Translations under genes and position numbers: made by a program | Shown: positions 1-42,715 of the stretch, in pieces | Layout of the letters: each line of letters opens with the position of its first letter | How positions within the stretch are numbered: position 1 is the first letter of the stretch | The notes under the pieces: generated by a model | Told to the model about the DNA's origin: nothing | The model's input: only the letters and a program-made list of their open reading frames with translations | Databases searched by the model: none | DNA from: Pyrinomonadaceae bacterium | GTDB lineage: Bacteria > Acidobacteriota > Blastocatellia > Pyrinomonadales > Pyrinomonadaceae | Assembly: GCA_035438525.1 (NCBI GenBank) | Contig: DAORIL010000001.1 | Span: 1 to 57,852, forward strand | Direction of reading: 5' to 3' | DNA length: 57,852 bases

Positions 1-1840
1 CTGGGCTTGTTCATCAGTTTCCGAACCGCTGGTTGATTGTTGCTGATAAAGCGCCTCTGCAATGCGATGCGACACGCGAGTCAGAGCATCCAACTGAGCC
101 TGGAATTGATCCGAACTGTTCGATTCGATAGTTTTCCTGGCTTCGGCAATTGCCGCCTCGGCTTCGGAGATCAATCCAACCGGAATCTTCTCGCGGTTTT
201 CGTTGATGATTTTTTCGGTGTTGAAAATCATTGAATCCAGATGATTCTTGGTTTCAACCGCCTCGCGTTTACGTTTGTCTTCCTCGGCATGCGATTCGGC
301 GTCTTTCATCATCCGGTCAATTTCGTCTTTGGACAAACCCGACGAAGCCGTGATGGTGATTTTTTGTTCGCGTCCGGTGCCTTTATCCTTTGCCGAAACG
401 TTGACTATGCCATTGGCGTCTATGTCGAAAGTTACTTCAACTTGCGGCATGCCTCGCGGCGCAGGCGGAATTCCAACCAGATGGAATTTGCCTAGTGTGC
501 GGTTGTCGCTGGCCATTTGTCGTTCGCCCTGCAGGACGTGAACTTCAACCGAGGTTTGATTGTCAGTCGCCGTTGAGAATGTTTCGGATTTACGAGTTGG
601 AATCGTCGTGTTGCGCTCGATCAACCGGGTGTAAACGCCGCCCAGCGTTTCAATGACCAAGCTTAACGGTGTCACGTCCAGCAGCAGCAGGTCTTTTACT
701 TCGCCGGACAACACACCTGCCTGAACGGCAGCGCCGATGGCCACAACTTCGTCAGGATTGATTTCCGAAGAAGGTTCTTTGCCGAATAATTCCGTAACGG
801 TTCGGGCAATAATCGGAGAACGGGTTTGTCCGCCGACCAAAATAACTTTGTCAATATCGCTGGCTTGCAGCTTGGCATCCCACAGAGCTTTTTGACATGG
901 TTCAACCGAAAGTTCCACTAAATCTTTAACTAAATCTTCAAATTTTGAGCGGGTTAAAACGGTATTGATGTGTTTTGGTCCGGTTGCATCAGCCGCGATA
1001 AATGGAAGATTAATAGTGGTTTCGGTAACAGATGAAAGTTCGCACTTGGCGCGTTCTGCCGCTTCTTTTAAGCGTTGCAGAGCCAGCCGGTCTTCTTTCA
1101 AATCAATGCCGTTTTCGAGTTTAAAATTTTCTACCACCCAATTGATAATTCGCTGGTCAAAATCTTCACCACCCAAAAACGTGTTGCCTGAAGTCGAAAG
1201 AACTTCAAAAACTCCGTCATTGATTTCCAAAATGGTCACGTCAAACGTGCCGCCGCCAAGGTCATAAACAACGATTCTTTCGGAACGATTTTTGCCGAAT
1301 CCGTAAGCCAGAGCGGCTGCCGTCGGCTCGTTGATGATACGTTCAACTTCTAAACCTGCAATTTTTCCGGCATCACGGGTTGCTTGTCGTTGAAAATCAT
1401 CAAAATATGCCGGAACCGTGATAATTGCTTCCGTGACGGTCGTCCCAAGAAATTCTTCGGCTGATTGTTTCAGGCGTTGCAGAACAATTGCCGAGATTTC
1501 CGGTGGACTGTAAGTGCGGTCAAGCACACGGATATGTGCGTCACCATTTGGAGCTTCGACCACCTCGAACGGAGCAGTTTCGCGCATTTTTTCAGACTCA
1601 AGTGAGTTAAACTTTCGTCCAATCAAACGCTTAATTGCAAAAAGAGTATTAGTTGGATTGGTGACGGCTTGGCGTTTAGCGATTTGACCTACTAACCGTT
1701 CGCCTTTTTCGGTAAAACCAACCACAGACGGGGTAGTTCTACCTCCTTCTTTGTTTGGAATAATTTGAATTGTTCCGCCTTCGAGAACCGAAACGCAACA
1801 GTTCGTAGTGCCTAAGTCTATTCCAATTACTTTGCCCATA
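1..1840 (-). CDS. dnaK: Molecular chaperone DnaK (Hsp70); 3' end lies beyond the window start
   Basis: The reverse complement of 1801-1840 reads ATGGGCAAAGTAATTGGAATAGACTTAGGCACTACGAAC = [26 protein letters not shown] is encoded around 1231-1270. The frame is open to position 1. The gene lies downstream of hrcA-grpE on the same strand. Confidence 0.95.
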
Positions 1841-7568: not shown

Positions 7569-7570
7569 TG

Positions 7571-9799: not shown

Positions 9800-11302
9800 A
9801 TGCTTGAAATCAGCCCCAAAAACTTTGAAGAATTTGTTGCCGAGATGAAAAACGGCAATGTTGTGCCAATCGTGCGAAGCGTTTTGGCGGATTTGCACAC
9901 GCCTGTCAGTGCTTTTATGCGTGTCTGCGGTGATGCTGAACAATCTTTTTTGCTGGAATCAGTCGAAGGCGGTGAACGCTTGGCGCGGTATTCTTTTCTG
10001 GCGGCAAATCCTTTGATGACGGTTCGGGTTCATAACCGCGACCTTTCCATCGAAAAAAACGGTGCCGCTAAAGCCTTAAAAGATGTTAGTTTATTTGAGT
10101 TTTTTCGCGAACATTTTGATCAAAATAAACTGGCGCATCGGGAAGGATTGCCACCGCTCTGCGGCGGCGCGGTGGGTTTTTTGACCTATGACGCAGTGCG
10201 TTGGTTTGAACCGATTTTGGATGACAATAAATATTATGATCGGGATGATGCAGTCTGGATGTTTTTCAAAACGATTTTGGCCTTTGATCGGCTTAAACAG
10301 CGGATCGAAATCGTTTCTGTAGTTTTTACCGACGAAGCTAAGGACGACGAAGCAAAACTCAAAGAACTTTATCATGAAGCAGTTGCAGAAACCGAGCGGA
10401 TCGAACTTTTATTAGCTGAAACAGCCAGATTTCCGGTTAGTAATAAAAATGGGAATGCCGAGAAATCGAAAGGATTTGAATCGAATTGGACGAAAAAAGG
10501 CTTTATGGAAAGCGTCGAAAAGATTCAGGAGCATATCTTGGCAGGCGATGCTTACCAGGTTGTTTTATCGCAACGATTCAGCCGTAAAATTTCGTCGGAA
10601 CCAATCAATATTTATCGCGCTCTGCGGACCACAAATCCTTCGCCGTATATGTTTTATCTAAAATTCGGCAAAGAACTTTTAATCGGCGCATCGCCTGAGA
10701 TGCTTGTTCGCTGTCGTGGAAAAAAACTTGACTATCGTCCGATTGCCGGAACTCGTCCGCGCGGCATCAATGAAACGGAAGATTGGATTTTGGGTGAAGA
10801 TATGCGCTCGGATGAAAAAGAAATTTCCGAACACGTAATGTTGGTTGATTTGGGGCGGAACGATTTGGGGCGGATTGCCGAATATGGTTCGGTTGAGGTC
10901 GAAGATTTGATGACGATTGAGCGTTACAGTCACGTTCAGCATTTGGTGACGAGTTTGTCAGCTACCCTGCGCGAAGGTTTTGACCGATTTGATTCTTTGG
11001 CTTCGTGTTTTCCTGCAGGAACAGTTTCCGGTGCGCCAAAAGTCAGCGCAATGCACATTATCAAGGAACTTGAACCGACTCCGCGCGGCGTCTATGCAGG
11101 TGCAGTCGGCTACATTGATTACGATGATAATTTAGATACCTGCATTGCTATTCGGACGCTTCAAATGAGGGATGGAGTAGCTTATATCCAAGCGGGTGCA
11201 GGCATTGTTGCTGATTCAGTTCCTGAAAAAGAATACGAAGAAACGATCAATAAAGCTCGGGCGCTGGTCAAAGCAATTGAGATTGCGGAAAAAGGTTTGT
11301 AG
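9800..11302 (+). CDS. trpE: Anthranilate synthase component I
   Basis: 500-aa ORF with chorismate-binding family motifs: LSQRFS, PSPYMFYL, GTRPRG, LVDLGRNDLGR, GAPKVSAM, YAGAVGY. Confidence 0.92.
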   Translation: MLEISPKNFEEFVAEMKNGNVVPIVRSVLADLHTPVSAFMRVCGDAEQSFLLESVEGGERLARYSFLAANPLMTVRVHNRDLSIEKNGAAKALKDVSLFEFFREHFDQNKLAHREGLPPLCGGAVGFLTYDAVRWFEPILDDNKYYDRDDAVWMFFKTILAFDRLKQRIEIVSVVFTDEAKDDEAKLKELYHEAVAETERIELLLAETARFPVSNKNGNAEKSKGFESNWTKKGFMESVEKIQEHILAGDAYQVVLSQRFSRKISSEPINIYRALRTTNPSPYMFYLKFGKELLIGASPEMLVRCRGKKLDYRPIAGTRPRGINETEDWILGEDMRSDEKEISEHVMLVDLGRNDLGRIAEYGSVEVEDLMTIERYSHVQHLVTSLSATLREGFDRFDSLASCFPAGTVSGAPKVSAMHIIKELEPTPRGVYAGAVGYIDYDDNLDTCIAIRTLQMRDGVAYIQAGAGIVADSVPEKEYEETINKARALVKAIEIAEKGL

Positions 11303-11386
11303 AGAAGTTTGGAAAGTTGAAGGAGTTTAGAAAGTTTAGGAAGTTTAAGATTTTCTTCCTAAACTTCCGTGACTTACTCAACTTTC
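11303..11386. repeat. Heptamer-built inverted repeat (GTTTAGGAAGT family) after trpE
   Basis: The left arm GAAAGTTGAAGGAGTTTAGAAAGTTTAGGAAG matches the reverse complement of the right arm, GAAAGTTGAGTAAGTCACGGAAGTTTAGGAAG. Confidence 0.8.
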
Positions 11387-16979: not shown

Positions 16980-18359
16980 TTATTGCTTTTCCAAAATTTT
17001 TGCTTTTAATTTTCCGTTAGCGAGCCGGATTTGCACATTTTCATCTATTTTTATTTGTTCAATATCGTGCAAAATTTCACCTTTTTCATTTTCGGTAATT
17101 GAATAACCACGTTTCAAAACCGACAATGGCGAAAGTGCATCCAGCGAAGCCATTTTGATTTTCAGTTTTTCATCACTCGAATCAATAACATCCTTAATGG
17201 CCGAGATTTGACGTTGTCTCAAGATTGCCAGTTTTGTTTGATTTTCCGAAACTTTAGCCGCTAATTTGATTGGCGAAAGACGATTTCGTAATAGTTCCAG
17301 CCGCTTTTCATCTTTTCGTAATTTATCGTCAAAATTTGATTCTAATCGGTCGTTCAAATCTTCGATTTCATAACGCCAATCTTTTATTTTCTGCGGGAAT
17401 TCATGGAAAACCGAAGCAAATGCCAATTCCTGCAATGAGTTCCGTGATTGCAAAATCTTGTAATTGATTGATTGAAAAAGGTCATTGGTGCGCTGAAAAA
17501 TAAATGCTTCAATATTTTCTTCGTTTTCAGCCACAATTTCGGCGGCGGCGGAAGGCGTAGCGGCACGAACATCAGCCACAAAATCGGCAATTGTAAAATC
17601 AATTTCGTGACCAACGGCGGAAATAACAGGAATTTTGGAATTACGAATTGCTCGGGCGACCCTTTCTTCGTTAAATGCCCATAAATCTTCTGATGAACCG
17701 CCGCCGCGCCCGACAATCAGCACATCAATCTTTTCGGATGCAGTTTCGTTAAATTTATTGGCAAGCTTGATGGCTTTTTCGATTTCTTCGCCTGCTGTTT
17801 CGCCTTGGACACGGGTTGGAATAAGCGTGATGTGAACCGTTTTTGTCCGTCGCCCTAAAACATTCAAAATATCGTGAAAAGCCGCTCCATTGGGAGAAGT
17901 TACCACCCCAACCCGTTTAGGAAAATACGGCAAACGGCGTTTTAATTCCTCATCAAATAAGCCTTCTTTGGCAAGTTTGGCCTTGATTTGCTCAAACGCC
18001 ACTTTCAATGCGCCTTCGCCAACCGGTTCGAGCGATTCAACCAAAATCTGATATTCGCCTTTTGGTTGATAAACGGAAAGTTTTCCCCGCACTCGCACCT
18101 GCAAACCATCAAAAGGCTTAAACCGAATCCGCAGATTATTGCGAATATAACAAGCCGCTTTTAATTGTGAAAAACCGTCGTGCAGAGTGAAATACCAATG
18201 CCCCGAATTTGCGGCCATAAAATTGGTGATCTCACCTTCGAGCCAGACCGATGCAAAACGCCTTTCCAGTTCGCCTTTGACCTGTTCGTTTAATTCCGAA
18301 ACAGTTAGTGGACGGCGTTCTTCTTCGTCAAATAGTGAATCTAAAAGCGATGATTTCAT
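16980..18359 (-). CDS. xseA: Exodeoxyribonuclease VII large subunit
   Basis: N-terminal OB-fold region (VWLEGEITNF...SGHWYFTLHD), GVVTSPNGAAFHDILNVLGRR, LIVGRGGGSSEDLWAFNEE, and a coiled-coil C-terminus; 459 aa. Confidence 0.9.
   Translation of the reverse strand: MKSSLLDSLFDEEERRPLTVSELNEQVKGELERRFASVWLEGEITNFMAANSGHWYFTLHDGFSQLKAACYIRNNLRIRFKPFDGLQVRVRGKLSVYQPKGEYQILVESLEPVGEGALKVAFEQIKAKLAKEGLFDEELKRRLPYFPKRVGVVTSPNGAAFHDILNVLGRRTKTVHITLIPTRVQGETAGEEIEKAIKLANKFNETASEKIDVLIVGRGGGSSEDLWAFNEERVARAIRNSKIPVISAVGHEIDFTIADFVADVRAATPSAAAEIVAENEENIEAFIFQRTNDLFQSINYKILQSRNSLQELAFASVFHEFPQKIKDWRYEIEDLNDRLESNFDDKLRKDEKRLELLRNRLSPIKLAAKVSENQTKLAILRQRQISAIKDVIDSSDEKLKIKMASLDALSPLSVLKRGYSITENEKGEILHDIEQIKIDENVQIRLANGKLKAKILEKQ
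18315..18359. repeat. Direct repeat copy A (45 bp) = first 15 codons of xseA
   Basis: GCGTTCTTCTTCGTCAAATAGTGAATCTAAAAGCGATGATTTCAT is identical, letter for letter, to 19069-19113. Confidence 0.95.
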
Positions 18360-18420
18360 TTGGGTTTTGATTATAACATTTGGTTTGAAATATCACGAAA
18401 ATAAGAATCTTTCTTAATTA

Positions 18421-18449
18421 TTGACAAAGATTAAAACTATTATCATAAT
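18421..18449 (+). promoter_or_regulatory. Sigma-70-type promoter of the parDE cassette
   Basis: TTGACA (18421-26), a 17-nt spacer, then CATAAT (18444-49). An AGGAGG RBS and the ATG at 18475 follow. Confidence 0.6.
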
Positions 18450-18474
18450 TTGCTTGGTTAGGAGGTTAAAAATT

Positions 18475-18735
18475 ATGGCAACAATGACAATTTCTTTACC
18501 TGAACCGATGCGCGAATTTGTAGAAGCAGAAGTTTCTAGCGGAAATTATGGCTCGGCAAGCGAACTGTTTCGTGAACTCGTCCGTGAGCGACAAAAACGA
18601 AAAGCCCAAGAGCGTTTGGAAACTCTGCTTTTAGAAGGATTAGAAAGCGGTCAACCAATTGAAGTAACGCAAGATTATTTGGACGCAAGACGGCAAGCAT
18701 TACGCGAAAAACTCGAAAAGGGAAAAGTTGATTGA
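18475..18735 (+). CDS. parD: Type II antitoxin, ParD/CopG-like
   Basis: MATMTISLPEPMREFVEAEVSSGNYGSASELFRELVRERQ... is a ribbon-helix-helix ParD pattern. AGGAGG lies 8 nt upstream of the ATG at 18475. The gene overlaps the toxin start by 4 nt (ATGA). Confidence 0.8.
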   Translation: MATMTISLPEPMREFVEAEVSSGNYGSASELFRELVRERQKRKAQERLETLLLEGLESGQPIEVTQDYLDARRQALREKLEKGKVD

Positions 18736-19061
18736 TGAAACTTGCCTTATTTTTACTGCCTCGTGCCGAAAAAGATATTGATTCTCATTGTGAATTCTGG
18801 GCAGAAAAAAGTGTAAAAAAAGCCTTAGCATTTGATCAGGCGGTTTTTGAAACTTTTGACCGTTTATGCGAGATGCCGCTTATCGGGACAGAACGAAATT
18901 ATTCAAGTCCAAAACTTTTCGGAATTCGGATATGGTTTGTCAAAGGCTTTGAGAAATATCTCATTTTTTACCGGAGCTTTGGTAATTATCTGGAAATTGT
19001 GCGGGTTTTGCATTCCGCCCAAGATACTGATTCTATTTTGGAAGAGGAATCTATCAACTAA
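18732..19061 (+). CDS. parE: Type II toxin, ParE/RelE family
   Basis: ...LPRAEKDIDSHCEFWAEKS...FETFDRLCEMPLIGTER...KYLIFYRSFGNYLEIVRVLHSAQD is the ParE signature; 109 aa. Confidence 0.8.
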   Translation: MMKLALFLLPRAEKDIDSHCEFWAEKSVKKALAFDQAVFETFDRLCEMPLIGTERNYSSPKLFGIRIWFVKGFEKYLIFYRSFGNYLEIVRVLHSAQDTDSILEEESIN

Positions 19062-19068
19062 ATAGATC

Positions 19069-19113
19069 GCGTTCTTCTTCGTCAAATAGTGAATCTAAAA
19101 GCGATGATTTCAT
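19069..19113. repeat. Direct repeat copy B (45 bp); dead duplicate of the xseA 5' end
   Basis: Identical to 18315-18359. On the minus strand it would encode MKSSLLDSLFDEEERDLFS*. Its ATG overlaps the TGA of the methyltransferase gene (ATGA). Confidence 0.95.
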
Positions 19114-19955
19114 AAATTAAAAGGCAAAGTAATTTGAGTTTTTTCATCTTTCATCGGCAAAGAATAGTTTGAAATAAAAAGCTCTTTTCCTATTTGATCT
19201 GAAGATTCGGTCACATTTCTCATTCCATAAGTTAAATTCCAAGCGGTGATTTTGGCAAACGAAAAAAGTTCACGAATATACGGCGAATCATCATAGGTTA
19301 TAAGCCATTTATGCTGACATTTTCGCAGATTTTTAGCAAATCTTTCGTGATCGAATATTTTATGAAACTGTCCGTTTTTTCCGTAAAGTGCAGAATCTGT
19401 AGCGGAAAAATACGGCGGATCAAGAAATAAAAAGACATTTTCTCCACCAGCATTAACAACTTCTTCGTAATCAAGATTAGTAATTTTCACCTCCCGCAAA
19501 ACTTTTGGTAATTCGACTAATCTTTCAATACTAGAGTTCGTAAAACGCTTTTGATAAGCCTGATTTGAAAAGCCCCCTGCTTCGGTCGTGCCTGAAAAAG
19601 TGATGCGATTAAAGATAAAAAAAGTGGCAGCTAATTCTATTTCATTAAAATTTTCTTTGTTATCGCGTAAGAATTTGTGAAGCGATTTCCCATCAGAATA
19701 TTCGTTTTTCCAACTCCAAATTTGTTCGATCAACTTTTCAGAATTTAGCTGATTTTGCTGCCAAAAAACTATTAAATCCCTATAAATATCGTTCATCCAA
19801 AATTTTTTCGCGGGAAATTTTTGTTTGAGAAAAACAGAGATCGAGCCGCCGCCGACAAAAGGTTCTCTAAATTCATCAAACGAAGGAATTAATCCGACAA
19901 TTTTTTCAACTGCCCGACTTTTTCCGCCCGGATAACGTAATGGACTGCGAATCAT
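19110..19955 (-). CDS. Dam-family (D12 class) N6-adenine DNA methyltransferase
   Basis: LRYPGGKSR, FREPFVGGGSI (the FxGxG AdoMet motif) and FLDPPYFSA (DPPY catalytic motif) occur in alpha-group order; 281 aa. Confidence 0.85.
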   Translation of the reverse strand: MIRSPLRYPGGKSRAVEKIVGLIPSFDEFREPFVGGGSISVFLKQKFPAKKFWMNDIYRDLIVFWQQNQLNSEKLIEQIWSWKNEYSDGKSLHKFLRDNKENFNEIELAATFFIFNRITFSGTTEAGGFSNQAYQKRFTNSSIERLVELPKVLREVKITNLDYEEVVNAGGENVFLFLDPPYFSATDSALYGKNGQFHKIFDHERFAKNLRKCQHKWLITYDDSPYIRELFSFAKITAWNLTYGMRNVTESSDQIGKELFISNYSLPMKDEKTQITLPFNL

Positions 19956-20023: not shown

Positions 20024-23000
20024 TTAATTGGCTGTTTCTCCGTGTTCTAAAATTATCTCAAAATTATTCTCTTTTGCTTCTTGAAATAGTTTTTTGACAA
20101 AGCCTGTTTGATTTTTAGAAAAACTATTGACTTGCAAAAAATCATCCACTTTTTGCGCTTCGGCATTAGAAGAAATTGATCCTTCCAGTTTGTTTGAAGT
20201 CAATTTCAGAGCAACTTTTAATGCGACATTTTCGCTTCCAACTTTAACATTTTTGAGATTGGTGTAAATCATCATTTTGACTAAACCGTCTTTGATATCA
20301 GAGGCAGAGGGTATTTTGGCGCGAATAGTATGTTTAGCTTCCATTAGTGTCAGATTTTTACCTTCAATTTTAGTTTCGTCACAAGTGAAATAATACAATC
20401 CGCCGTCTTTATCACTGATTGTTACACGAGCCTTGGTGTCGCTTGAGAGGGCTTCTTTGGGTTGAATCGTGGCAAATTCGCGTCCCTGGGCTTTTTGCGA
20501 TTTTTGGCGCGAAAGTGTGCGGAAATCTTCTAAACTTTTGCTGATTTTGATGACAAAATTATCAATTCCTTTTTCATCGTGAAGTGTAACACTAGTTCGC
20601 TTGGCAATTTCTGCGTAAGCCGTCTTTGCTTTTTCCGCGATTTGGGCAATTCCCTGCAATTCTTTCAAATTCCATTCAGTTGCAGTTCCTTTGAAATTTT
20701 GCAGCTCGTTTAATTTATTCAAAATGAATGCGTTATCAAATTGCTGGTCGGTCAATTCATTTTTTGAATCTCGTTGAGCCTCATTGTAATAACCAAGAAT
20801 CAGATACACGTCCAACAGGTTCATCAACGAAAAAGTATCAAACTGCAAAAAGTCGCGTTCGCCGTCTTTGCCTTCGTCTTTGATAATTGGAATGATTGTT
20901 GCTTTTCGGGGGGATGTTAAAGTGTTGTAAATGCGTTCGTAGGGGTAAGAGCGAGTGCGTTTTGGCGAAACCCAGCGGCTAACCGCCAGCTCGCCAAACA
21001 AAAAGGCAGGCGGAGATTTATTAACATCAAAACCTTCTGCGCTAATTTTTTTTAAAGTATTGCCAAGTGACGTTTTGTAATGAATATCGGTAATTTCGCC
21101 CGTAATTTCCGGTGGTGGTTGGGGAATGGAATAAGAAATCGGGGCAAATTTGAAATCGTTTGGTTCTTCCTTTTTTAAACTACTGACTACTTTGTTTGAA
21201 ACTTCCGTGACTGCACCGAGATTGACAAAAGTTCCTAAAACATTGACCTTAACTCTTAAACGAGGCGAAGCGGAATCTCCGACATCGGAACTATCTGAGC
21301 GAAACGTCACTGTGTAAGCAGTTCTTAATTGAACTACGATGTCTTCGTAAGCCTTTTGTAAATCGTCGAGACGGCGAATCGGATAATAAACTCCGCCCGA
21401 AACTTTGGCTAATCGTGCGCCTTCTTCTTCGGCTTTGGAAGTCAAACCCATATATCGCGTTCGCAACGGATCGACGGTTTGGCTGGCACTATTGGTTGCC
21501 GATGCCGCCACTAATCCGGAAGGAACATAAAGCGGATAGATGAGTGCGCCGCTTTCCTGAATTGAGCCAAGCAGAGAATCGAACGGCAAAAATGAGCGAT
21601 TATCGTCACCGTCAGATAAAACTACGAGAGCAGTCCGTTCGCCTTTGAAAGGTTTGAGAGTATCAACCAAAGTATAAGCAATTGCATCGTAATAAGCCGT
21701 TGCGCCGCCTGCATCAAAGGTGTCGAGCGATTCGGATAGCTGATTGCGATTGGTCGTAAAAACTGAGATTTGTTTTACGTCTTCGCTAAAAATGACAATC
21801 GAAATTTTGTCATTGGGACGCATTGTATTGAGAAAATTCCGCGCCGCTTTACGAATAAAGTTGACATAATTCTCGACACTGCCTGAAACATCCAACAACA
21901 AGACCAAATTAAAAGGTGCAGTAACTGGTTCAACTGATAAAATCTCGCGTTCCTTGCCGTATTCGGTAACCACAAAATCTTTTTTTTCGAGTCCGCCAAC
22001 CGCCCGGTTATTTGAATCAACCACTCGGGCAATAACTTGTTTGATTTTGGCAACTCCGTTATTTTCAACGCGCGGTTTATCAACTAAATTCGGAGTAATC
22101 CGGCGCGGCGGCAAAGTTTTTAGATAATCGCCGAAATATTTGGGGCTGGCACGGCGAATAGCTTCGGTCAGCATTGAATCACCACTGCGAACTATGGCTT
22201 TAGCGGCTTCGGTCAACGGGCGTTCGCGCAAATCAGAAGAAACTTCGGTCGGGCTGACATTGAGTAAAATGATTCCGCGTGCAGTCGAAAATTTTAATGA
22301 GATTGCGTTTCCATCAATCGTCTTTTTCTTATCTTTTTTGTCGTCCTCTTTGGTCGGAGTCGGTTCAGGAGTTGGAGTTGGTTCGGTAGTTTCGGTTGCG
22401 TTCTCTTTTTCTTTGGCTGCTTTTTCGGCTTTTGCTTTTATGGCTTCTTCGTCCACAAATTTGCCTTTAATTTCAAAACGTCCGGCTGATTTCTCTTTGA
22501 CTTCTTCGATGTCAATATCGCTCAGGTAACGCGGACGAGATTGAGTCCACATAAATTCATATTTGATATTTTCCAGAGGAATATTAGTCGCAATCGTTCC
22601 GGTATCAGTAAAAACTTCTGCCGAAAAAATATTTCCGTCAATTGATACTTCGCCTTCTTCGGTTTCTATTTTAAGCCGAACGCGTTCAGGAACCTGAACA
22701 GTTAGATCAAGTCTGGTTTTAGCATTTTGCGGATTAACGTTGATTTTTATTTTTCCGCCAGCAGAATTTATTTCAAAATCTTTTTCGGTGAGAGTCTTTG
22801 AACTGTTAGCAATTAATAAAACTTTGTCGTCTTCGCCTTCTTTGGTTGCTTTTGCCTCGACTTTAACCCGCCCATAAAAATTAGTAACGTCAATCAAACC
22901 GTCCGCTTTAAACTTAAACTCTTTTTGAAAAGTTTGGGCGTTGACAGTAAGCAATAAGCAGTAAGCAGTTAGCAGTAGAAAACAAAAACTCCGCCATCCC

Positions 23001-23047
23001 AATTTTGAATTTTGAACTTTTAATTTTGAACTTTGAACTATCTTCAT
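20024..23047 (-). CDS. Fusion protein: signal peptide + adhesin-like beta region + VWA domain (Acidobacterial VWFA type) + C-terminal PD-(D/E)xK restriction-endonuclease-like region
   Basis: The VWA MIDAS motif is LLLDVSGSV, with ...VVLSDGDDN downstream. A typical VWFA-family ending ...SPRLRVKVNV lies near aa 610-620. The ORF then continues for about 370 aa with no stop and no in-frame ATG/GTG/TTG. This region contains RWVSPKRTRSYPYERIYNT and TCDETKIEGKNLTLMEAKH (a D...ExK pattern). The start overlaps the kinase stop (ATGA). Confidence 0.7.
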   Translation of the reverse strand: MKIVQSSKLKVQNSKLGWRSFCFLLLTAYCLLLTVNAQTFQKEFKFKADGLIDVTNFYGRVKVEAKATKEGEDDKVLLIANSSKTLTEKDFEINSAGGKIKINVNPQNAKTRLDLTVQVPERVRLKIETEEGEVSIDGNIFSAEVFTDTGTIATNIPLENIKYEFMWTQSRPRYLSDIDIEEVKEKSAGRFEIKGKFVDEEAIKAKAEKAAKEKENATETTEPTPTPEPTPTKEDDKKDKKKTIDGNAISLKFSTARGIILLNVSPTEVSSDLRERPLTEAAKAIVRSGDSMLTEAIRRASPKYFGDYLKTLPPRRITPNLVDKPRVENNGVAKIKQVIARVVDSNNRAVGGLEKKDFVVTEYGKEREILSVEPVTAPFNLVLLLDVSGSVENYVNFIRKAARNFLNTMRPNDKISIVIFSEDVKQISVFTTNRNQLSESLDTFDAGGATAYYDAIAYTLVDTLKPFKGERTALVVLSDGDDNRSFLPFDSLLGSIQESGALIYPLYVPSGLVAASATNSASQTVDPLRTRYMGLTSKAEEEGARLAKVSGGVYYPIRRLDDLQKAYEDIVVQLRTAYTVTFRSDSSDVGDSASPRLRVKVNVLGTFVNLGAVTEVSNKVVSSLKKEEPNDFKFAPISYSIPQPPPEITGEITDIHYKTSLGNTLKKISAEGFDVNKSPPAFLFGELAVSRWVSPKRTRSYPYERIYNTLTSPRKATIIPIIKDEGKDGERDFLQFDTFSLMNLLDVYLILGYYNEAQRDSKNELTDQQFDNAFILNKLNELQNFKGTATEWNLKELQGIAQIAEKAKTAYAEIAKRTSVTLHDEKGIDNFVIKISKSLEDFRTLSRQKSQKAQGREFATIQPKEALSSDTKARVTISDKDGGLYYFTCDETKIEGKNLTLMEAKHTIRAKIPSASDIKDGLVKMMIYTNLKNVKVGSENVALKVALKLTSNKLEGSISSNAEAQKVDDFLQVNSFSKNQTGFVKKLFQEAKENNFEIILEHGETAN
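22946..23040. repeat. Two heptamer tracts (AGTAAGC-type x5 and AATTTTG-type x5-6) that encode the signal peptide of the VWA fusion gene
   Basis: 22946-22980 reads AGTAAGC AATAAGC AGTAAGC AGTTAGC AGTAGAA. 23001-23040 reads AATTTTG AATTTTG AACTTTT AATTTTG AACTTTG AACTA. On the coding strand these give MKIVQSSKLKVQNSKL...LLLTAYCLLLTV. Confidence 0.85.
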
Positions 23048-25293
23048 CTTTTTTCTGTGCTGCTTACTCTACCTGATTGTATCAGACGGTCGCGGATTCG
23101 ATGTTGCCAATTGGTGCGGGGATGTTCGGCATCTTCAAATTTTGTTAATAAATCCTGCATTGATTCGCCACCTGCCTGACGGGTTTTGAAATAAAGTAAC
23201 GCTGTTATTATAGACGTAAAAGAGGAAATAAGAAAAATTATCGGCATCCAGATCAATTCAAAAATCGCGGTTCCGATTCCGACTCTTTTTTCCATTCTTC
23301 TCATTTTTTCTTTATCTGATTCGGTATCTTTATCATCATCAGAGATTTTAACTCCATGAGGTCCGACAGAAATATTTACATTGTCGTCATCTGCCGCCTT
23401 TTGTTCAATTTTTGTGCTTTCTACAGGTTGCGGCGAAAATCCTTTGATAATTCCCTGAATCGCAAAACTTATGATAATTGCTAAAATAGTTGGAATCAGA
23501 TAAACGATCAGCGAAGTCCCTAAAACTGTTAAAAAGGAACGTTTGACAAGTTCGACCGAGCGCCGAAAGGCTACTCTGCCGCTTAATCCTTCCATCATTA
23601 TCGATGGAGTAATCAGCATATATCTCGCCGAAAGATAAAGTCCCGGGAAAAAGCAAAGAACGAATCCGAATAAAGCTAACAAAGTAGAAACCGTGACAGT
23701 TTTCAAAAGCGGTTTCCACTTTTTTCTTAACTCACTAAAGGCATTTCTGATCTGTATCGGACGCAGCGGAACTGCCAAAATTTGCGCAACGATCCAGGTT
23801 GTAGCACCAACCAACATCGTTGAATAAAACATTTTGACAAAGAAATCAGCAAAAGAGAGAACAATCTTGGTAGTTATCCAGACTGCATTAGCAGATACGG
23901 CTTCTGTTGCCACCAGTAGATCAACTACAACCTTGGCAAAATTAGTAATAAAAAAAGGAATTGCCAGGATCAATGAGAGCAATAGAAATTTTGGCAAATG
24001 TTCGCCGTAAATGGCTAAAGCTTTTGTAAATAAAGCTCCGATTCCTTCGGAATGAGCGCGTAAAGTGCTGGCGAAAGCTTCGGCAGTTTGCGGACGCTCA
24101 TCCGTATTTTTTGCCAATGCCGAAAATAATACTTTCTTGACTTTGCGCGGAATCTTTTTTGCTTCCAAAGGTGGCGGTGCAACTTCTTTGTGCGAATCCA
24201 TTACTTCGGTAAAATTACCCGTAAAAGGTGTTTTGCCCGACAGCATTTGATACGCAATAATCGCCAAACTGTAAATATCGGAACGAGGCGTAAGTTTTTC
24301 CCCGCGGCACTGTTCCGGCGACATATAAAGCGGTGTGCCTAAAACCGCTCCGACTCTGGTTAATTCGGCAGTTGCAGGATTTCCCAAAGCTTTATCAGTA
24401 TCTGCATTTGAAATTAACCTGGTGCCTTTTTCATCCTTTTCAATCAGTTGCGTTCCTTTATTTTCGTCTGGAAAAATCGCGGTTCCATCTTCCAAAGAAA
24501 TTTCGGCGGCAGGGAAAATTGCCGTTCCTTTTTCATCACTGACCGAGAGAATTGCCGTTCCTTTTTCATCGTTAGCAGAAAAAATTGCGGTTCCTTTTTC
24601 ATTAACAGGATTTTGAATCAGAGTTCCGCCTTCACCGATCATTGTTGCACTGCGATTTTCGATAATTGTCTGAGCATTGGTCTGATCAGCCAGAGTGTCG
24701 CCGTGCTGCAAGGCTTGAGTCGGCGTAGTTGTGGTCGGATTGAGCAACGCTTTTTCGTTTTCGTCACTGCTCATCGGTTCTTCGAGCTTGGCAATCCCAA
24801 AATCTAAAACTTTTACCGTATAACCGCCGCGCTGATTCGGTTCAAGCCAAATATTATCAGGTTTTAGATCACGGTGAATAATGCCTTGACCATGCGCTTC
24901 GTGAACTGCTGAACAGACTTGTTCCAAAATATCGAGCGTCCATCCCAGAGGCAGTTGTTTTTCTTCTTCTAAAATTTCGCCGAGCGTGCAGCCGTCAAGA
25001 TATTCCATCACCAAATAGGCGACGCGCCCTTGCGAAGTCTCGGCAAAACCAAAATCGGTCACATTAACCACGTTTGGATGTCTTAACCTGCCTGCCGCCC
25101 GTGCTTCACGACGAAACCGTTCGACAAACTCAACACGCTGCATAAATTGCGGAACGATAACTTTTAGTGCCACAGGTCTTTCCGTTCCAATGTGCATTGC
25201 TAGATAAACGGCACCCATTCCGCCGCGCCCAAGCTCTCTTTCGATTGAATATTTACTGTCGAGCGTTTGCCCGATGAGACTTTCTAAATTCAT
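23044..25293 (-). CDS. Ser/Thr protein kinase with repeat-rich linker and multi-pass C-terminal membrane domain
   Basis: GRGGMGAVYLA...ALKV, HRDLKPDNIW, DFGIAK and GTPLYMSPEQ are Hanks kinase motifs. The linker contains EKGTAIF-type repeats. About 6 TM segments lie in the C-terminal half. Confidence 0.9.
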   Translation of the reverse strand: MNLESLIGQTLDSKYSIERELGRGGMGAVYLAMHIGTERPVALKVIVPQFMQRVEFVERFRREARAAGRLRHPNVVNVTDFGFAETSQGRVAYLVMEYLDGCTLGEILEEEKQLPLGWTLDILEQVCSAVHEAHGQGIIHRDLKPDNIWLEPNQRGGYTVKVLDFGIAKLEEPMSSDENEKALLNPTTTTPTQALQHGDTLADQTNAQTIIENRSATMIGEGGTLIQNPVNEKGTAIFSANDEKGTAILSVSDEKGTAIFPAAEISLEDGTAIFPDENKGTQLIEKDEKGTRLISNADTDKALGNPATAELTRVGAVLGTPLYMSPEQCRGEKLTPRSDIYSLAIIAYQMLSGKTPFTGNFTEVMDSHKEVAPPPLEAKKIPRKVKKVLFSALAKNTDERPQTAEAFASTLRAHSEGIGALFTKALAIYGEHLPKFLLLSLILAIPFFITNFAKVVVDLLVATEAVSANAVWITTKIVLSFADFFVKMFYSTMLVGATTWIVAQILAVPLRPIQIRNAFSELRKKWKPLLKTVTVSTLLALFGFVLCFFPGLYLSARYMLITPSIMMEGLSGRVAFRRSVELVKRSFLTVLGTSLIVYLIPTILAIIISFAIQGIIKGFSPQPVESTKIEQKAADDDNVNISVGPHGVKISDDDKDTESDKEKMRRMEKRVGIGTAIFELIWMPIIFLISSFTSIITALLYFKTRQAGGESMQDLLTKFEDAEHPRTNWQHRIRDRLIQSGRVSSTEKR

Positions 25294-25833: not shown

Positions 25834-25981
25834 ACCCACACATCTTTCCAAACAAAATGTTACCGTTAATAAATCGGTCTTTGGCATTCGTTCTTTGGTT
25901 TTTGCAAGGTTAAAAAAGTTGAAATTATTCAGCCACAGACCCAAAGACCAAACCTAAAAACCATTTCAAAAGGAAAAATCT

Positions 25982-26368: not shown

Positions 26369-26400
26369 ATACTTATCAATCAGCAATTTAGGAAAAATCT

Positions 26401-40791: not shown

Positions 40792-40883
40792 TTTATATCA
40801 TAAAGTTCTTTTTGACAAGTTGTTTATTTATTCAATCTCTATTGTCTTGCATTTTTAAGTAAAAACAAAGGAAAATCAAATCA

Positions 40884-40967
40884 ATGAATAATTTTCAACC
40901 AAACGAAAAAGGTTACTGGGGCGAATTCGGCGGACGATTATCTTTTCAATCAGGTAATTTATGTTAA
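40884..40967 (+). pseudogene. trpB 5' remnant (first 18 codons of trpB, then a 9-codon out-of-context tail)
   Basis: It encodes [27 protein letters not shown]. 40882-40936 matches 41517-41571 with 4 mismatches. It retains the upstream AAGGAAAA RBS-like sequence. Confidence 0.8.
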
Positions 40968-41185
40968 AATTAACCATTATGACCACGACTTTAGAAGTGA
41001 TTTACGAAAACGGTATTTTTAAACCACTTTCGAGCGTTCCGAAAAATTTCAAAGAACACGAAAGGATGAAAATTATTATTGAAACCGAATTTGATGCAGA
41101 TTTAGAAAGCGAAATTGCTCAATGGGAGCAAGCAAGCGATGAGGATTTTTTAAAATTTGAAGAGGCTTTAGGAGAAAAACCTTAA
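40961..41185 (+). CDS. Antitoxin, DUF104/AF2212-like
   Basis: ...TLEVIYENGIFKPLSSVPKNFKEHERMKIIIE matches the DUF104 pattern (IEAxYENGVFKPL...). The true start may be the ATG at 40979. The stop overlaps the toxin ATG (TAATG). Confidence 0.6.
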   Translation: MLKLTIMTTTLEVIYENGIFKPLSSVPKNFKEHERMKIIIETEFDADLESEIAQWEQASDEDFLKFEEALGEKP

Positions 41186-41526
41186 TGGCTCGCGGGGATG
41201 TTTTGTTAGTTAGTTTGCCTGTTAGTGAGACCCGCGAACAATCCGGTCGCCGTCCGGCAATTGCATTGCAAACTGATATTATGGGCGAACCAATGCTGAT
41301 GATTGCCCCAATTACTTCAAATCTAAGTGCCTCAAGATTTGCGTTTTCTGTCCAAATCGAACCTTCTCCAGAAAACGGTTTGACTCAAACTTCTATTGTG
41401 ATGATTTTTCAAATGCGTGCGATTGATAAAACTAGAATTATCAAGAAAATTGGTGAACTTTCCAAATCAGATTTAGAAAAAGTTGATACTCAAATCTGGA
41501 AAATGCTTAAACCTAACAATGAATAA
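41185..41526 (+). CDS. mazF: Type II toxin, MazF/PemK family endoribonuclease
   Basis: [31 protein letters not shown]...IAPITSN...IDKTRI is the MazF signature; 113 aa. Confidence 0.8.
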
Positions 41527-42715
41527 CTTCCAACCAAACGAAAAAGGTTACTGGGGCGAATTCGGTGGGCGTTTTGTTCCCGAAACGCTGATGTCGCCAC
41601 TCGAAGAATTGACTTCGGCTTATTTTACTATCCGTGATGATGCAGATTTTCAAGCCGAATTTCTCAATCTGTTACAAGACTTTTCCGGTCGCCCGACTCC
41701 GCTTTTTTATGCCAAAAGATTATCGGAAACCCTCGGCGGGGCAAAAATTTATCTTAAACGCGAAGATTTAGGACATACCGGCTCGCACAAAATCAACAAC
41801 GCCATCGGACAGGTTTTACTTGCCAGACGAATGGGCAAAAAAAGAATTATTGCCGAAACCGGAGCAGGTCAACACGGTGTAGCTACGGCGACTGTTTGTG
41901 CATTATTTGGTTTAGAATGTGTGGTTTATATGGGAACCGAAGATATGCGACGGCAAGAGTTGAATGTCTTTCGGATGAGACTTTTGGGTGCAGAAGTTCG
42001 CGGTGTTGATTCAGGTTCGCGGACGTTGAAAGACGCAATTAATGAAGCCTTACGCGATTGGGTGACAAATGTTGATTCGACTTATTATTTGCTCGGCTCG
42101 GCTCTCGGACCGCATCCGTATCCGCTGATGGTGCGTGATTTTCAAAGTCACATTGGGCGCGAAGCCCGTCAACAAATTCTCGAAAAAGAAGGTCGTTTAC
42201 CTGATTTGTTAGTGGCGTGCGTGGGTGGCGGTTCAAATTCGATTGGACTTTTTCATCCGTTTTTACAAGACGAATTGGTGCGAATGATTGGTGTTGAAGC
42301 CGGCGGAAAAAGTTCAAAATTAGGCGAACACGCGGCACGTTTTATGGATGGTGGAAAGGTCGGAGTTTTGCAGGGAACAAAAAGTTATTTGTTGCAAGAT
42401 GATCGTGGAAATATTTCGCTAACTCATTCAATATCAGCAGGTTTAGATTACGCTTCGATTGGTCCTGAACACGCATTTTTGCACGATTTGGGCAGAGTAG
42501 AATATGTTTCGGCTTCGGATGAAGAGGCATTAAAGGCTTTTCAAACTTTATCGCAAACTGAAGGAATTATTCCCGCTTTGGAAAGTTCACACGGGATTGC
42601 TCATGCGATAAAAATTGCGCCGGAAATGTCGCCCAACGAAATTATGGTCGTTAATCTTTCGGGTCGTGGCGATAAGGATGTCAATCAAGTGCAGGAAATG
42701 CTCCAAAATAAATAA
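41519..42715 (+). CDS. trpB: Tryptophan synthase beta chain
   Basis: [25 protein letters not shown]..., HTGSHKINN (PLP lysine), [10 protein letters not shown] and GGGSNSIG are present. I prefer the ATG at 41519, which overlaps the mazF stop, because the track start at 41483 adds 12 non-conserved residues. Confidence 0.9.

What the first reader, a model, noticed from the sequence alone, without database searches (positions are those of the whole stretch)
18315..19113. parDE cassette bracketed by a perfect 45-bp direct repeat that duplicates the first 15 codons of xseA
18315-18359 and 19069-19113 are identical (45/45). Copy A is the live 5' end of xseA (minus strand, MKSSLLDSLFDEEER...). Copy B is a dead duplicate whose ATG still overlaps the TGA of the upstream methyltransferase gene (ATGA). 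This implies that the methyltransferase gene and xseA were once translationally coupled.

The 709 bp between the copies contain only a consensus-like promoter (TTGACA-17-CATAAT), parD and parE, on the opposite strand. No integrase, transposase or inverted ends are visible.

A 45-bp target duplication is far longer than transposase-generated duplications. The cassette sits at a position that preserves an intact host gene start. The same pattern recurs at trpB (see 40882-41574).
Basis: seen in the sequence. Interest (0 to 1): 0.68.

Follow-up and report, generated by a model that had tools for sequence, protein, structure and literature searches.

The report
Toxin-antitoxin cassette carrying spare gene start
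A small parDE toxin-antitoxin cassette sits inside the start of the DNA-repair gene xseA and brings its own replacement gene start and promoter, so both its flanks are xseA sequence and ordinary homologous recombination, not a transposase, probably moves it between related genomes.

Summary
18315-18359 and 19069-19113 are identical (45/45) and bracket 709 bp holding only a promoter, parD and parE. Copy B's ATG overlaps the methyltransferase stop (ATGA). The trpB parallel is real (53/58; all five mismatches synonymous). Independent assemblies rule out an artefact.

The repeat is not a target-site duplication. In six Pyrinomonadaceae lineages the ParE stop codon abuts a displaced xseA fragment at the same position (+52; the window's last 7 nt have diverged). 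The displaced ATG is joined to five different upstream genes, and three of these arrangements also occur as cassette-free alleles. The cassette's other end carries a conserved TATAAT 10 nt before the live ATG.

I read the insert as [parE-parD + divergent promoters + surrogate xseA codons 1-17] lying within xseA. Both flanks are then xseA sequence, so double-crossover recombination can transfer it whatever lies upstream. Supporting evidence:
- 0/45 versus 4/7 mismatches within copy B (p=1.3e-4);
- repeat-copy differences biased to third codon positions (31/23/74);
- about 47-fold enrichment of flanking gene-end duplications around a PemK cassette family.

The first event, the donors and any role for addiction are inferred. 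This is a new variant of known kinds and of moderate interest.

The parts
16980..18359 (-). xseA (exonuclease VII large subunit), intact live gene; right-hand homology arm
   Evidence: 459-aa ORF; Pfam Exonuc_VII_L E=7e-101 and OB fold. Orthologues at 61-88% identity in 47 Pyrinomonadaceae loci.
18315..18359 (-). Repeat copy A: live xseA codons 1-15; the surrogate gene start adjacent to the cassette
   Evidence: 45/45 identical to 19069-19113. Continues in frame into xseA.
18360..18474 (.). Divergent promoter region at the cassette end. It holds the parDE promoter TTGACA-17-CATAAT (18421-18449, + strand) and a conserved TATAAT on the minus strand (18375..18370), 10 nt before the xseA ATG.
   Evidence: Promoter scan gives 11/12. 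The '...TATAATC.A.A....A|ATG' end is conserved in the parDE-bearing loci window, L029, L056, L057, L152 and L054. Function as the xseA promoter is inferred.
18475..18735 (+). parD antitoxin (86 aa)
   Evidence: Pfam ParD_antitoxin E=2e-7. 87-90% aa identity to the copies in L018, L029, L056 and L057.
18735..19061 (+). parE toxin (108 aa); its start overlaps the parD stop
   Evidence: Pfam ParE_toxin E=1.3e-11. 72 relatives found, 41-88% identical.
19062..19068 (-). 7-nt linker: the diverged remnant of xseA nt +46..+52, marking the old, fixed joint with the ParE stop codon
   Evidence: Exactly 7 nt lie between xseA +45 and the ParE stop in the window, L018, L054, L148/149 and L150/151. In L148-L151 they read CATCCGT / CGTCCGC, which is xseA +46..52. 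In the window 4 of 7 differ from the live copy versus 0 of 45 before them (p=1.3e-4).
19069..19113 (-). Repeat copy B: displaced (dead) xseA codons 1-15, still attached to the old upstream context; left-hand homology arm
   Evidence: 45/45 identical to copy A. Reads MKSSLLDSLFDEEERDLFS**.
19110..19955 (-). D12-class N6-adenine DNA methyltransferase gene; its TGA overlaps copy B's ATG (ATGA)
   Evidence: Pfam MethyltransfD12 E=3.5e-37. The same overlap with live xseA occurs in cassette-free relatives.
40882..40939 (+). Second case: displaced trpB start (2 nt + codons 1-18), attached to a different upstream context (promoter region, VIT and exosortase genes 37085-40791)
   Evidence: 53/58 identical to 41517-41574; all 5 mismatches are synonymous third positions.
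40959..41526 (+). PemK/MazF cassette. It comprises an extended -10 box TGTTAAAAT (40962-40970), an AF2212-like antitoxin (40979-41185) and a PemK toxin (41185-41526) whose stop lies inside the live trpB start.
   Evidence: Pfam AF2212-like E=4e-10 and PemK_toxin E=1e-24. Cassette boundaries were defined by aligning 17 copies from at least 5 contexts. The promoter scan found TAAAAT preceded by TG.
41517..42715 (+). Live trpB (ATG at 41519), including repeat copy 41517-41574
   Evidence: Pfam PALP E=6e-45. Aligns with trpB downstream of the same cassette in L066, L067 and L080.

Best explanation
What it is. The 45-bp repeat is the visible part of an old 52-bp "regenerated target plus displaced fragment" structure. 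A compact, recombinase-free parDE addiction cassette lies inside xseA after nt +52. The insert consists of parE, parD, a divergent promoter region, and a surrogate copy of xseA codons 1-17. The surrogate start keeps xseA intact and now expressed from a cassette-borne TATAAT. The original 5' end (copy B) is left behind, still fused to whatever gene used to precede xseA.

How it moves. Both flanks of the insert are xseA sequence: a 52-nt left arm and the rest of the gene as right arm. The unit can therefore pass between related genomes, or stay put while upstream alleles are swapped, by ordinary RecA-type double crossover. Each exchange that resolves inside the short left arm rewrites the dead copy with a functional allele's sequence. 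That explains why copy B is perfect over 45 nt while its 7 joint-proximal nt are old.

Wider pattern. The founding event must have been illegitimate: either homology-facilitated illegitimate recombination, or single-crossover integration of a circularised fragment. The trpB/PemK case is a younger product of the same logic. There the alleles 'X|trpB' and 'trpF|cassette|trpB' are stacked and share a partly duplicated trpB start.

Shown: the anatomy, the fixed joint, the multiple upstream contexts, the substitution patterns and the enrichment.
Inferred: the recombination pathway, the direction of transfer, promoter function, and any contribution of toxin addiction to retaining the cassette.
For: 1. 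Fixed joint. The ParE stop is followed by exactly 7 nt and then xseA +45..+1 in the window, L018, L054/L055, L148/149 and L150/151. In L148-L151 the 7 nt are recognisably xseA +46..52.

2. Five upstream contexts. The displaced ATG is tightly joined (ATGA overlap or stop-adjacent) to five different genes: methyltransferase (window, L148/149), a 343-aa gene (L018), VWA (L054), a sigma-54 regulator (L150/151) and a 339-aa-family gene (L152). The methyltransferase, VWA and 320-354-aa-family arrangements also occur as cassette-free alleles directly abutting live xseA.

3. Uneven divergence within copy B. 0/45 versus 4/7 mismatches, p=1.3e-4. This indicates recent homologous exchange that stopped short of the joint.

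4. Dead copies look like functional alleles. L150 reads MKSSLLESLFDDEERRP. L152's dead copy reads MKSQLLQ while its live copy reads MKSALLQ, and both types are found as live alleles elsewhere.

5. Codon-position bias. Mismatches between repeat copies fall 31/23/74 on codon positions 1/2/3. This gives p=2e-8 against a uniform distribution and p=0.0055 against a model of in-situ duplication followed by decay. At trpB the split is 0/0/5.

6. Divergence does not track. parDE nucleotide identity (76-84%) does not follow xseA identity (69-82%). The first ~120 nt of the window's xseA lose their special similarity to the closest relative L001 (76-78% versus 83-88% further in) (weak evidence).

7. Cassette end. 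A conserved TATAAT lies 10 nt before the live ATG in parDE-bearing loci.

8. Generality. Cassettes of the PemK family are bracketed by duplicated host gene ends in L078 (~104 nt), L094 (~230 nt, EamA 3' end) and L104 (~70 nt). Overall 5 of 58 cassette loci score as bracketed versus 3 of 1500 random segments (odds ratio 47, p=3e-6).

9. Non-TA examples of allele stacking occur at the same hotspot (L038 DUF4919 gene; L020 methyltransferase).

10. For trpB, the alleles 'trpF|cassette|trpB' (L066, L067, L080) and the window's trpF tail match.

11. Published analogues. Islands that split a target gene yet carry sequence restoring it, leaving a displaced fragment (PMC4383910 abstract). Arrays of displaced toxin/immunity modules attributed to homology-facilitated illegitimate recombination (PMC5361080).
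Against: - No donor/recipient pair or empty-site polymorphism was found within the same population. Exact-protein look-ups returned only the same allele.
- A 52-nt arm that is 10-20% diverged between species is a poor RecA substrate, so transfer may be limited to close relatives.
- For the window itself, 45/45 identity carries no donor signal. Intragenomic gene conversion from the live copy could also explain it.
- The recombination-tract test along xseA is noisy.
- The origin of the first 52-nt duplication is unexplained.
- I could not read the primary HFIR papers to check whether duplications, rather than deletions, are a documented outcome.
- The codon-position tests depend on assumed relative rates, and some alignments include ragged ends.
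Confidence: 0.6

Rival explanations
1. Single ancient insertion inherited vertically. The dead copy is kept similar to the live one by intragenomic gene conversion, and the different upstream genes arrived by independent local insertions and deletions. There is no inter-genome transfer of the cassette unit.
For: The joint is identical in six lineages, which a single origin explains most simply. parDE next to xseA is widespread in the family. Dead copies are visibly decayed in L018 and L054. L029's spacer suggests secondary deletion of the dead copy.
Against: The window's closest relatives, L001 and L002, lack the cassette. parDE divergence does not track xseA divergence. The five upstream genes each reproduce the exact stop/ATG geometry of cassette-free alleles, which independent indels would not regenerate. 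In L152 the dead and live copies are different functional allele types. Gene conversion lacks homology beyond the ATG, yet identity runs right up to it.
Confidence: 0.17
2. A dedicated or unknown insertion mechanism makes long staggered cuts, producing true target-site duplications of tens of bp when TA cassettes jump.
For: The repeat in the window is perfect. The cassettes have tight, reproducible ends and occupy several unrelated sites. Flanking duplications are strongly enriched around TA cassettes.
Against: Duplication lengths range from ~8 to ~230 nt. Copy differences are biased to third positions, and 5/5 are synonymous at trpB, which is not expected for identical-at-birth copies with one copy decaying. 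The parDE joint is fixed while upstream contexts vary. Many cassette copies have no duplication. Non-TA genes show the same structure. No candidate enzyme is present in the window.
Confidence: 0.08
3. Site-specific recombination by an integrase encoded elsewhere in the genome (a mobilisable mini-island or integron-like cassette). The repeat would be the att core.
For: The architecture of regenerated target plus displaced fragment is typical of integrase-borne islands (PMC4383910; dusA islands PMC4482086). The parDE/xseA joint is at a constant position.
Against: No integrase lies in 58 kb or next to the cassette in any of ~15 parDE loci. There is no room for attC or arm sites: 7 nt lie beyond parE, and the PemK cassette has ~20 nt and ~14 nt flanks. 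There are no inverted repeats. Other inserts at the same gene start use different positions (-25..+8, +22, +38, +115, +150). Two unrelated targets (xseA, trpB) share no sequence.
Confidence: 0.1
4. Assembly artefact: collapsed or chimeric strain haplotypes.
For: The window comes from a metagenome-derived assembly, and perfect repeats can signal misjoins.
Against: The repeat is shorter than reads and typical k-mers. A second assembly of the same run gives the same structure, and contigs from three other runs match the trpB region at 100%, two of them across the dead-copy junction. A Logan unitig ends inside the repeat. The same joint, decayed, is present in a chromosome-level genome and in five other lineages. 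The trpB repeat has 5 mismatches.
Confidence: 0.01

Closest known systems
Integrase-borne genomic islands that split a target gene and carry a sequence restoring it (tRNA/tmRNA islands; dusA 5'-end islands)
   Same: The target gene is interrupted. The insert supplies a surrogate gene end so the gene stays intact. A displaced fragment marks the other border. The two form direct repeats (PMC4383910 abstract and PMC4482086).
   Different: There is no integrase, no att arm sites and no excision machinery. The insert is only ~760 bp (two TA genes, promoters and 52 nt of surrogate gene start). Other inserts at the same gene start use other positions.
Displaced ('orphan') toxin-immunity arrays of T6SS, Rhs and CDI loci, formed by homologous plus illegitimate recombination
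   Same: A conserved anchor gene provides homology. Incoming modules are added and older pieces are pushed aside, leaving repeated fragments of the anchor and stacked cassettes. No recombinase is involved (PMC5361080). L029 shows such an array at xseA, in order: parDE, 141-aa ORF, xseA' 1-115, Phd/PIN, ParE' remnant, xseA.
   Different: The anchor here is an unrelated housekeeping gene and it is its 5' end that is duplicated. The cargo is type II TA modules, not secreted toxins. The anchor gene is not part of the toxin system.
Insertion-duplication (Campbell-type, 'ends-in') integration and homology-facilitated illegitimate recombination in transformable bacteria
   Same: The product is an insert flanked by a duplicated stretch of the target, made by host recombination only. 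HFIR is described as a homologous anchor at one end and an illegitimate joint at the other (PMC5361080; PMC2884548).
   Different: These are laboratory or rare-event descriptions. Here the product has become a heritable, recurrent architecture tied to TA cassettes. I could not verify from the primary papers that HFIR yields duplications.
Chromosomal type II parDE and mazEF/pemIK modules
   Same: Gene order antitoxin then toxin, overlapping stop and start, own promoter, and Pfam family membership.
   Different: Nothing unusual in the proteins themselves. The novelty is in how the cassette is embedded: it supplies a gene start and promoter for the neighbouring housekeeping gene.

Membership tests
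Type II toxin-antitoxin system, ParD/ParE | ParD-family (RHH) antitoxin gene immediately upstream of, and overlapping, a ParE/RelE-fold toxin gene | tested here: met
   PF03693 E=2e-7 for 18475-18735. PF05016 E=1.3e-11 for 18735-19061. The stop and start share base 18735.
Type II toxin-antitoxin system, ParD/ParE | Own promoter upstream of the antitoxin | tested here: met
   TTGACA-17-CATAAT at 18421-18449, 11/12 match, conserved in relatives. This is a consensus match only; activity was not tested.
Type II toxin-antitoxin system, ParD/ParE | Toxin is growth-inhibitory and is neutralised by the cognate antitoxin | not testable with these tools
Type II toxin-antitoxin system, MazF/PemK (trpB cassette) | PemK/MazF toxin preceded by a small antitoxin gene with overlapping stop and start | tested here: met
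   PF02452 E=1e-24. AF2212-like PF01954 E=4e-10. ATGA-type overlap at 41185.
Transposon / insertion sequence with target-site duplication | Transposase gene within or next to the element | tested here: not met
   Only parD and parE lie between the repeats. The nearest transposase-like gene is an IS200-type Y1 gene 30 kb away.
Transposon / insertion sequence with target-site duplication | Terminal inverted repeats or conserved element ends | tested here: not met
   No inverted repeat brackets the cassette. The PemK cassette ends have no terminal repeats across 17 copies.
Transposon / insertion sequence with target-site duplication | Duplication of fixed, short length, identical at birth, at varied target sites | tested here: not met
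   Lengths range from ~8 to ~230 nt. Copy differences are synonymous-biased. parDE is always at the same xseA position.
Integron gene cassette | attC recombination site (imperfect palindrome of about 60-140 nt) at the cassette's 3' end | tested here: not met
   Only 7 nt lie between the ParE stop and xseA-derived sequence, and ~14 nt of homology lie beyond the PemK toxin stop. No inverted repeats.
Integron gene cassette | IntI integrase and attI platform nearby | tested here: not met
   None in the window or in the flanks of related loci.
Integrase-mediated island with target-gene restoration | Regenerated target gene plus displaced fragment forming direct repeats at the borders | tested here: met
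   Copies A and B. The joint is fixed at +52 in six lineages.
Integrase-mediated island with target-gene restoration | Tyrosine or serine integrase encoded at one end of the element | tested here: not met
   Absent in all ~15 parDE loci and 80 PemK loci examined near the cassette.
Product of homologous + illegitimate recombination (HFIR / insertion-duplication) | Insert flanked by a duplicated stretch of a conserved anchor gene; alternative alleles exist in relatives | tested here: met
   Cassette-free alleles MTase|xseA, VWA|xseA and 320-354-aa-family gene|xseA occur in relatives. trpF|cassette|trpB occurs in L066, L067 and L080.
Product of homologous + illegitimate recombination (HFIR / insertion-duplication) | The two repeat copies derive from different lineages (donor and recipient) | tested here: inconclusive
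   Supported at trpB (5/5 synonymous), L094, L078 and L152, and by pooled codon-position bias (p=0.0055 against in-situ duplication plus decay). It cannot be tested for the window's xseA repeat, which is 45/45 identical.
Product of homologous + illegitimate recombination (HFIR / insertion-duplication) | Microhomology at the illegitimate joint; dependence on RecA and DNA uptake | not testable with these tools
   The parental sequences of the founding event are unknown.

The most novel reading that the evidence does not exclude
Chromosomal TA cassettes may form a widespread, unrecognised class of recombinase-free mobile units that travel with a surrogate end of a conserved housekeeping gene. The duplicated gene end would serve both as a repair patch that keeps the host gene intact and as a portable homology arm. 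The cassette could then be installed by ordinary homologous recombination in any relative, whatever the neighbouring genes are. Toxin addiction would kill recombinants that replace the cassette with a cassette-free allele, so only 'stacked' recombinants survive. Gene-end duplications next to TA modules (seen here in Acidobacteriota and in unrelated higher-GC lineages) would then be a general footprint of how TA modules spread and persist.
Probability: 0.3. Interest if true: 0.72.

Novelty: new variant of a known kind. Interest (0 to 1): 0.55.

Why it matters
How chromosomal toxin-antitoxin modules move has long been unclear. They behave as mobile DNA but usually carry no recombinase.

This locus offers a concrete and testable answer for at least two TA families. 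The cassette sits inside the end of a conserved gene, carries a replacement gene end (and here a promoter), and so is flanked on both sides by conserved host sequence. Host homologous recombination is then enough to spread it or to shuffle its surroundings.

The duplicated gene ends are a searchable footprint. In principle they record donor and recipient sequence. They were about 47-fold enriched around one TA family in a small sample.

The structure also shows a TA cassette rewiring a DNA-repair gene. xseA is uncoupled from its former operon partner and placed under a cassette-borne promoter. This could matter for regulation.

If toxin addiction biases recombination outcomes toward keeping the cassette, that would be a new, mechanistically explicit form of TA selfishness on chromosomes.

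Tried and rejected
1. Translational coupling of the trpB-cassette antitoxin to the truncated trpB' leader (ATGTTAA overlap at 40961). Withdrawn. The 'TATGTTAAAAT' is a conserved extended -10 box present in every context, and the real start is the ATG at 40979.

2. 'Clean' parDE loci without a dead copy (L029, L057) as the ancestral donor state. Now considered more likely derived by deletion. L029's 5-nt spacer resembles L018's 7-nt linker, and the +52 joint is shared by six lineages.

3. Sliding-window recombination-tract test along xseA. Only suggestive, because 120-nt windows are noisy.

4. Strain-level empty-site polymorphism via exact-protein look-ups of XseA, the methyltransferase and the PemK toxin. 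Only the same allele was found.

5. Generic short-range direct-repeat scan of 52 loci. Most other hits were terminator hairpins, REP-like elements or tandem paralogues, not gene-end duplications. L072 and L073 in the PemK scan were indexing artefacts.

6. Literature. Six full-text searches found no description of TA cassettes bracketed by duplicated host gene ends. The primary HFIR papers and Pandey & Gerdes 2005 are not held, so absence from the literature is not established.

7. Microhomology at the founding joint. Not assessable without the parental sequences.

8. GC content. The cassettes are slightly lower in GC (36-37%) than xseA and trpB (42-45%) but similar to the window mean of 39%, so this is uninformative.


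Full report
**1.

The two 45-nt segments 18315-18359 and 19069-19113 are identical. Identity ends exactly at the ATG on one side and after xseA nucleotide +45 on the other.

- Copy A is the start of an intact xseA (16980-18359, minus strand; Exonuc_VII_L, E=7e-101).
- Copy B reads MKSSLLDSLFDEEERDLFS** and is dead.
- Copy B's ATG overlaps the TGA of a D12 adenine methyltransferase gene (19110-19955).
- The 709 bp between the copies contain parD (18475-18735), parE (18735-19061) and a TTGACA-17-CATAAT promoter (18421-18449, 11/12 match). There are no terminators and no bracketing inverted repeats.

The trpB parallel is also real. Segments 40882-40939 and 41517-41574 are 53/58 identical and bracket an AF2212-like antitoxin and a PemK/MazF toxin.

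The structures are not assembly artefacts.
- A second assembly of the same sequencing run reproduces the xseA structure at 100% (L053).
- A Logan unitig ends inside copy B.
- Contigs from three other sequencing runs match the trpB region at 100%. Two of them (L145, L146) span the dead-trpB'-to-cassette junction.

The organism is a Pyrinomonadaceae bacterium (Acidobacteriota); the best xseA relative is 88% identical.

**2. Empty-site test and the hotspot**

I fetched 52 xseA loci from related genomes. The region upstream of xseA is hypervariable.

- In some genomes a large VWA-domain gene ends 0-11 nt before the xseA ATG.
- In others the methyltransferase gene ends in an ATGA or TGATG overlap with xseA (L009, L025, L032, L044, L039, L002, L004, L036).

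Other genomes carry extra xseA 5' fragments of different lengths, separated from the live gene by small inserts:
- L003: about 44 nt, then an HNH-nuclease two-gene module.
- L038: about 150 nt, then a DUF4919 gene.
- L029: a nested array, in order: parDE, a 141-aa ORF that borrowed the first ~8-14 nt of xseA, xseA' 1-115, a Phd/PIN pair, a ParE 3' remnant, xseA.
- L020: the methyltransferase gene itself is bracketed by a 25-nt repeat of the VWA gene's 3' end.

The start of xseA is therefore a recombination hotspot where alternative alleles become stacked. The inserts are not only TA modules.

**3. The parDE unit has a fixed joint**

Close ParE relatives (78-88% identity) are almost always next to xseA in this family. 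Aligning the junctions gave the key result.

In the window, L018, L054/L055, L148/149 and L150/151, the ParE stop codon is followed by exactly 7 nt and then by xseA +45..+1. In L148-L151 those 7 nt read CATCCGT or CGTCCGC, which is plainly xseA +46..+52. The founding duplication was therefore 52 nt and abutted the ParE stop. That joint has been kept in six lineages. L152 has a shortened fragment of about 22 nt, and L029 and L057 have lost it.

The displaced ATG, in contrast, is tightly joined to five different upstream genes:
- methyltransferase (window, L148/149);
- a 343-aa gene (L018);
- VWA (L054);
- a sigma-54 response regulator (L150/151);
- a 339-aa-family gene (L152).

The geometry is the same stop/ATG arrangement that live xseA has in cassette-free alleles. 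The methyltransferase, VWA and 320-354-aa-family arrangements are themselves seen as cassette-free alleles.

On the other side, the cassette ends with a conserved '...TATAATC.A.A....A' directly before the live ATG (window 18375..18370, 10 nt upstream). This is present in the parDE-bearing loci window, L029, L056, L057, L152 and L054. It is probably the promoter that now drives xseA.

**4. Reinterpretation**

The insert is best described as [parE, parD, divergent promoters, surrogate xseA codons 1-17] lying within xseA after +52. Copy A belongs to the insert and regenerates the gene. Copy B is the displaced original start.

Both flanks are then xseA sequence. A double crossover, with the left exchange inside the 52-nt arm and the right exchange anywhere in xseA, would move the unit into any relative, or would swap the upstream allele while retaining the cassette. 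Either event rewrites the dead copy up to the crossover point.

This accounts for several observations:
- Identity within the window's dead copy is uneven: 0/45 mismatches followed by 4/7 (p=1.3e-4).
- Dead copies read like functional alleles. L152's dead copy encodes MKSQLLQ and its live copy MKSALLQ; both types occur as live alleles elsewhere.
- parDE divergence (76-84% nt) does not track xseA divergence (69-82%).
- The window's closest relatives lack the cassette.
- Weakly, the first ~120 nt of the window's xseA lose their special similarity to the closest relative.

**5. The trpB case**

In L066, L067 and L080 the same PemK cassette lies cleanly between trpF and trpB, with no duplication.

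In the window, trpF (36090-37073) has the same C-terminal tail that precedes the cassette in L066. However, it is separated from the cassette by an exosortase gene, a VIT-domain gene, a promoter region and trpB' 1-56.

The window is therefore a recombinant of two alleles, 'X|trpB' and 'trpF|cassette|trpB', joined at the cassette's edge, with the shared trpB start duplicated. All five differences between the copies are synonymous third positions. This is what two diverged functional orthologues would show, not a duplicate decaying in place.

**6. Generality and controls**

Seventeen copies of the PemK cassette from at least five contexts share homology only from an extended -10 box (TGnTAAAAT, about 12 nt before the true antitoxin ATG at 40979) to about 14 nt past the toxin stop. 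There are no terminal repeats.

Among about 58 evaluable loci, five distinct ones are bracketed by duplicated host sequence:
- window;
- L078, about 104 nt;
- L094, about 230 nt of an EamA gene's 3' end, with the dead copy still an open reading frame carrying conservative substitutions;
- L104, about 70 nt;
- L112/113, 34 nt.

The same test on 1500 random pseudo-cassettes in the xseA loci gave 3 hits (odds ratio 47, p=3e-6).

Pooled mismatches between repeat copies fall 31/23/74 on codon positions 1/2/3. This gives p=2e-8 against a uniform distribution and p=0.0055 against a model in which one copy decays neutrally and the other evolves under constraint.

**7. Mechanism, and what is inferred**

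Shown:
- the anatomy;
- the fixed joint;
- the multiple upstream contexts;
- the existence of alternative alleles;
- the substitution spectra;
- the enrichment.

Inferred:
- that spread and upstream-allele swapping occur by RecA-type recombination using the dead copy as an arm;
- that the founding events were illegitimate (homology-facilitated illegitimate recombination, or single-crossover integration of a circularised fragment);
- that the TATAAT drives xseA;
- that toxin addiction selects against clean replacement by cassette-free alleles.

I cannot tell whether, in the window's recent history, the cassette entered a methyltransferase|xseA genome or the methyltransferase allele entered a cassette-bearing genome. 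Both give the same product. Pure vertical descent with gene conversion remains a substantial rival.

**8. Comparison with known systems**

The proteins are ordinary ParD/ParE and MazF/PemK-type modules.

The 'regenerated target plus displaced fragment' architecture is that of integrase-borne islands in tRNA genes and in the 5' end of dusA (PMC4383910, PMC4482086). Here there is no integrase, no att arms, and only about 760 bp of insert.

The stacking of modules beside repeated fragments of an anchor gene resembles orphan toxin/immunity arrays of T6SS, Rhs and CDI loci, which have been attributed to homology-facilitated illegitimate recombination (PMC5361080). Here the anchor is a housekeeping gene's 5' end and the cargo is type II TA.

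Transposon and integron-cassette membership were tested and not met: no transposase, no terminal repeats, variable duplication lengths, and no room for attC.

Six full-text searches found no description of TA cassettes bracketed by duplicated host gene ends. Several key older papers could not be read.

**9. Verdict**

However, the 'long target duplication' framing is wrong.

The repeat is a recombination scar that doubles as a surrogate gene start and a homology arm. It belongs to a conserved parDE unit that sits in a recombination hotspot.

I rate it a new variant of known kinds, with interest 0.55. The broader reading is that gene-end-carrying TA cassettes are a general, recombinase-free mode of TA mobility stabilised by addiction. 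It is not excluded (probability about 0.3) and would be considerably more interesting.

Noticed in passing
window 20024-23047; L004, L021, L030, L032, L039, L043, L044: The C-terminal ~360 residues (647-1006) of the 1007-aa VWA-domain protein recur in relatives as a separate gene placed between the VWA gene and the D12 methyltransferase gene. This suggests a mobile two-gene module (possibly nuclease-like partner plus methyltransferase). The domain has no Pfam hit.
   Followed up: partly
L020:4269-6000: The methyltransferase gene is itself bracketed by a 25-nt repeat of the VWA gene's 3' end. A 757-bp ORF-less insert containing REP-like hairpins is bracketed by a 25-nt repeat of the methyltransferase 3' end, directly before xseA.
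   Followed up: partly
window 36090-37073: The trpF (PRAI) ORF carries a ~125-aa C-terminal extension with no Pfam hit. Its end (…EEKAFDLFFALLEEFKLEKEDLS) is conserved in L066, where it directly precedes the PemK cassette.
   Followed up: partly
window 49350-49802 (minus strand): IS200-like Y1 (HUH) transposase gene, possibly a REP-associated RAYT. REP-like GC-rich hairpin elements occur in related loci (L018 between the cassette and xseA; L020; L029).
   Followed up: no
window 25971-26790: Two tandem paralogous genes (128 and 129 aa, signal-peptide-like N termini, 72-97% identical segments). The same ~400-bp tandem pattern appears in L019, L030, L033 and L036.
   Followed up: no
window 7564-7619 and 11299-11354: Two short arrays of a 9-nt periodic motif (TTnGGRAAG-like, 'GGAAGTT'), lying 3.7 kb apart just beyond gene ends. 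Unexplained.
   Followed up: no
window 24514-24612: Three tandem 33-nt repeats (67-100% identical) inside the Ser/Thr protein kinase gene 23044-25293.
   Followed up: no
L018:9465-10503: A 40-nt direct repeat (95% identical) with 999-bp spacing, in a stretch without long ORFs, downstream of xseB. It was the only strong hit among 1500 random control segments. Its nature is unknown.
   Followed up: no
L150:1-1100 and L054:37-1330: In these relatives the promoter end of the parDE cassette is followed not by xseA but by a secreted-protein gene (MKKLG…, or a 383-aa gene of the 343-aa family). The xseA'-parDE unit therefore also occurs separated from live xseA.
   Followed up: partly
L112/L113:3635-4418: A PemK cassette in a genome rich in GCGATCGC (HIP1-like, probably cyanobacterial) is flanked by a 34-nt repeat containing that motif. 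This may be a repeat-element coincidence and not a gene-end duplication.
   Followed up: no
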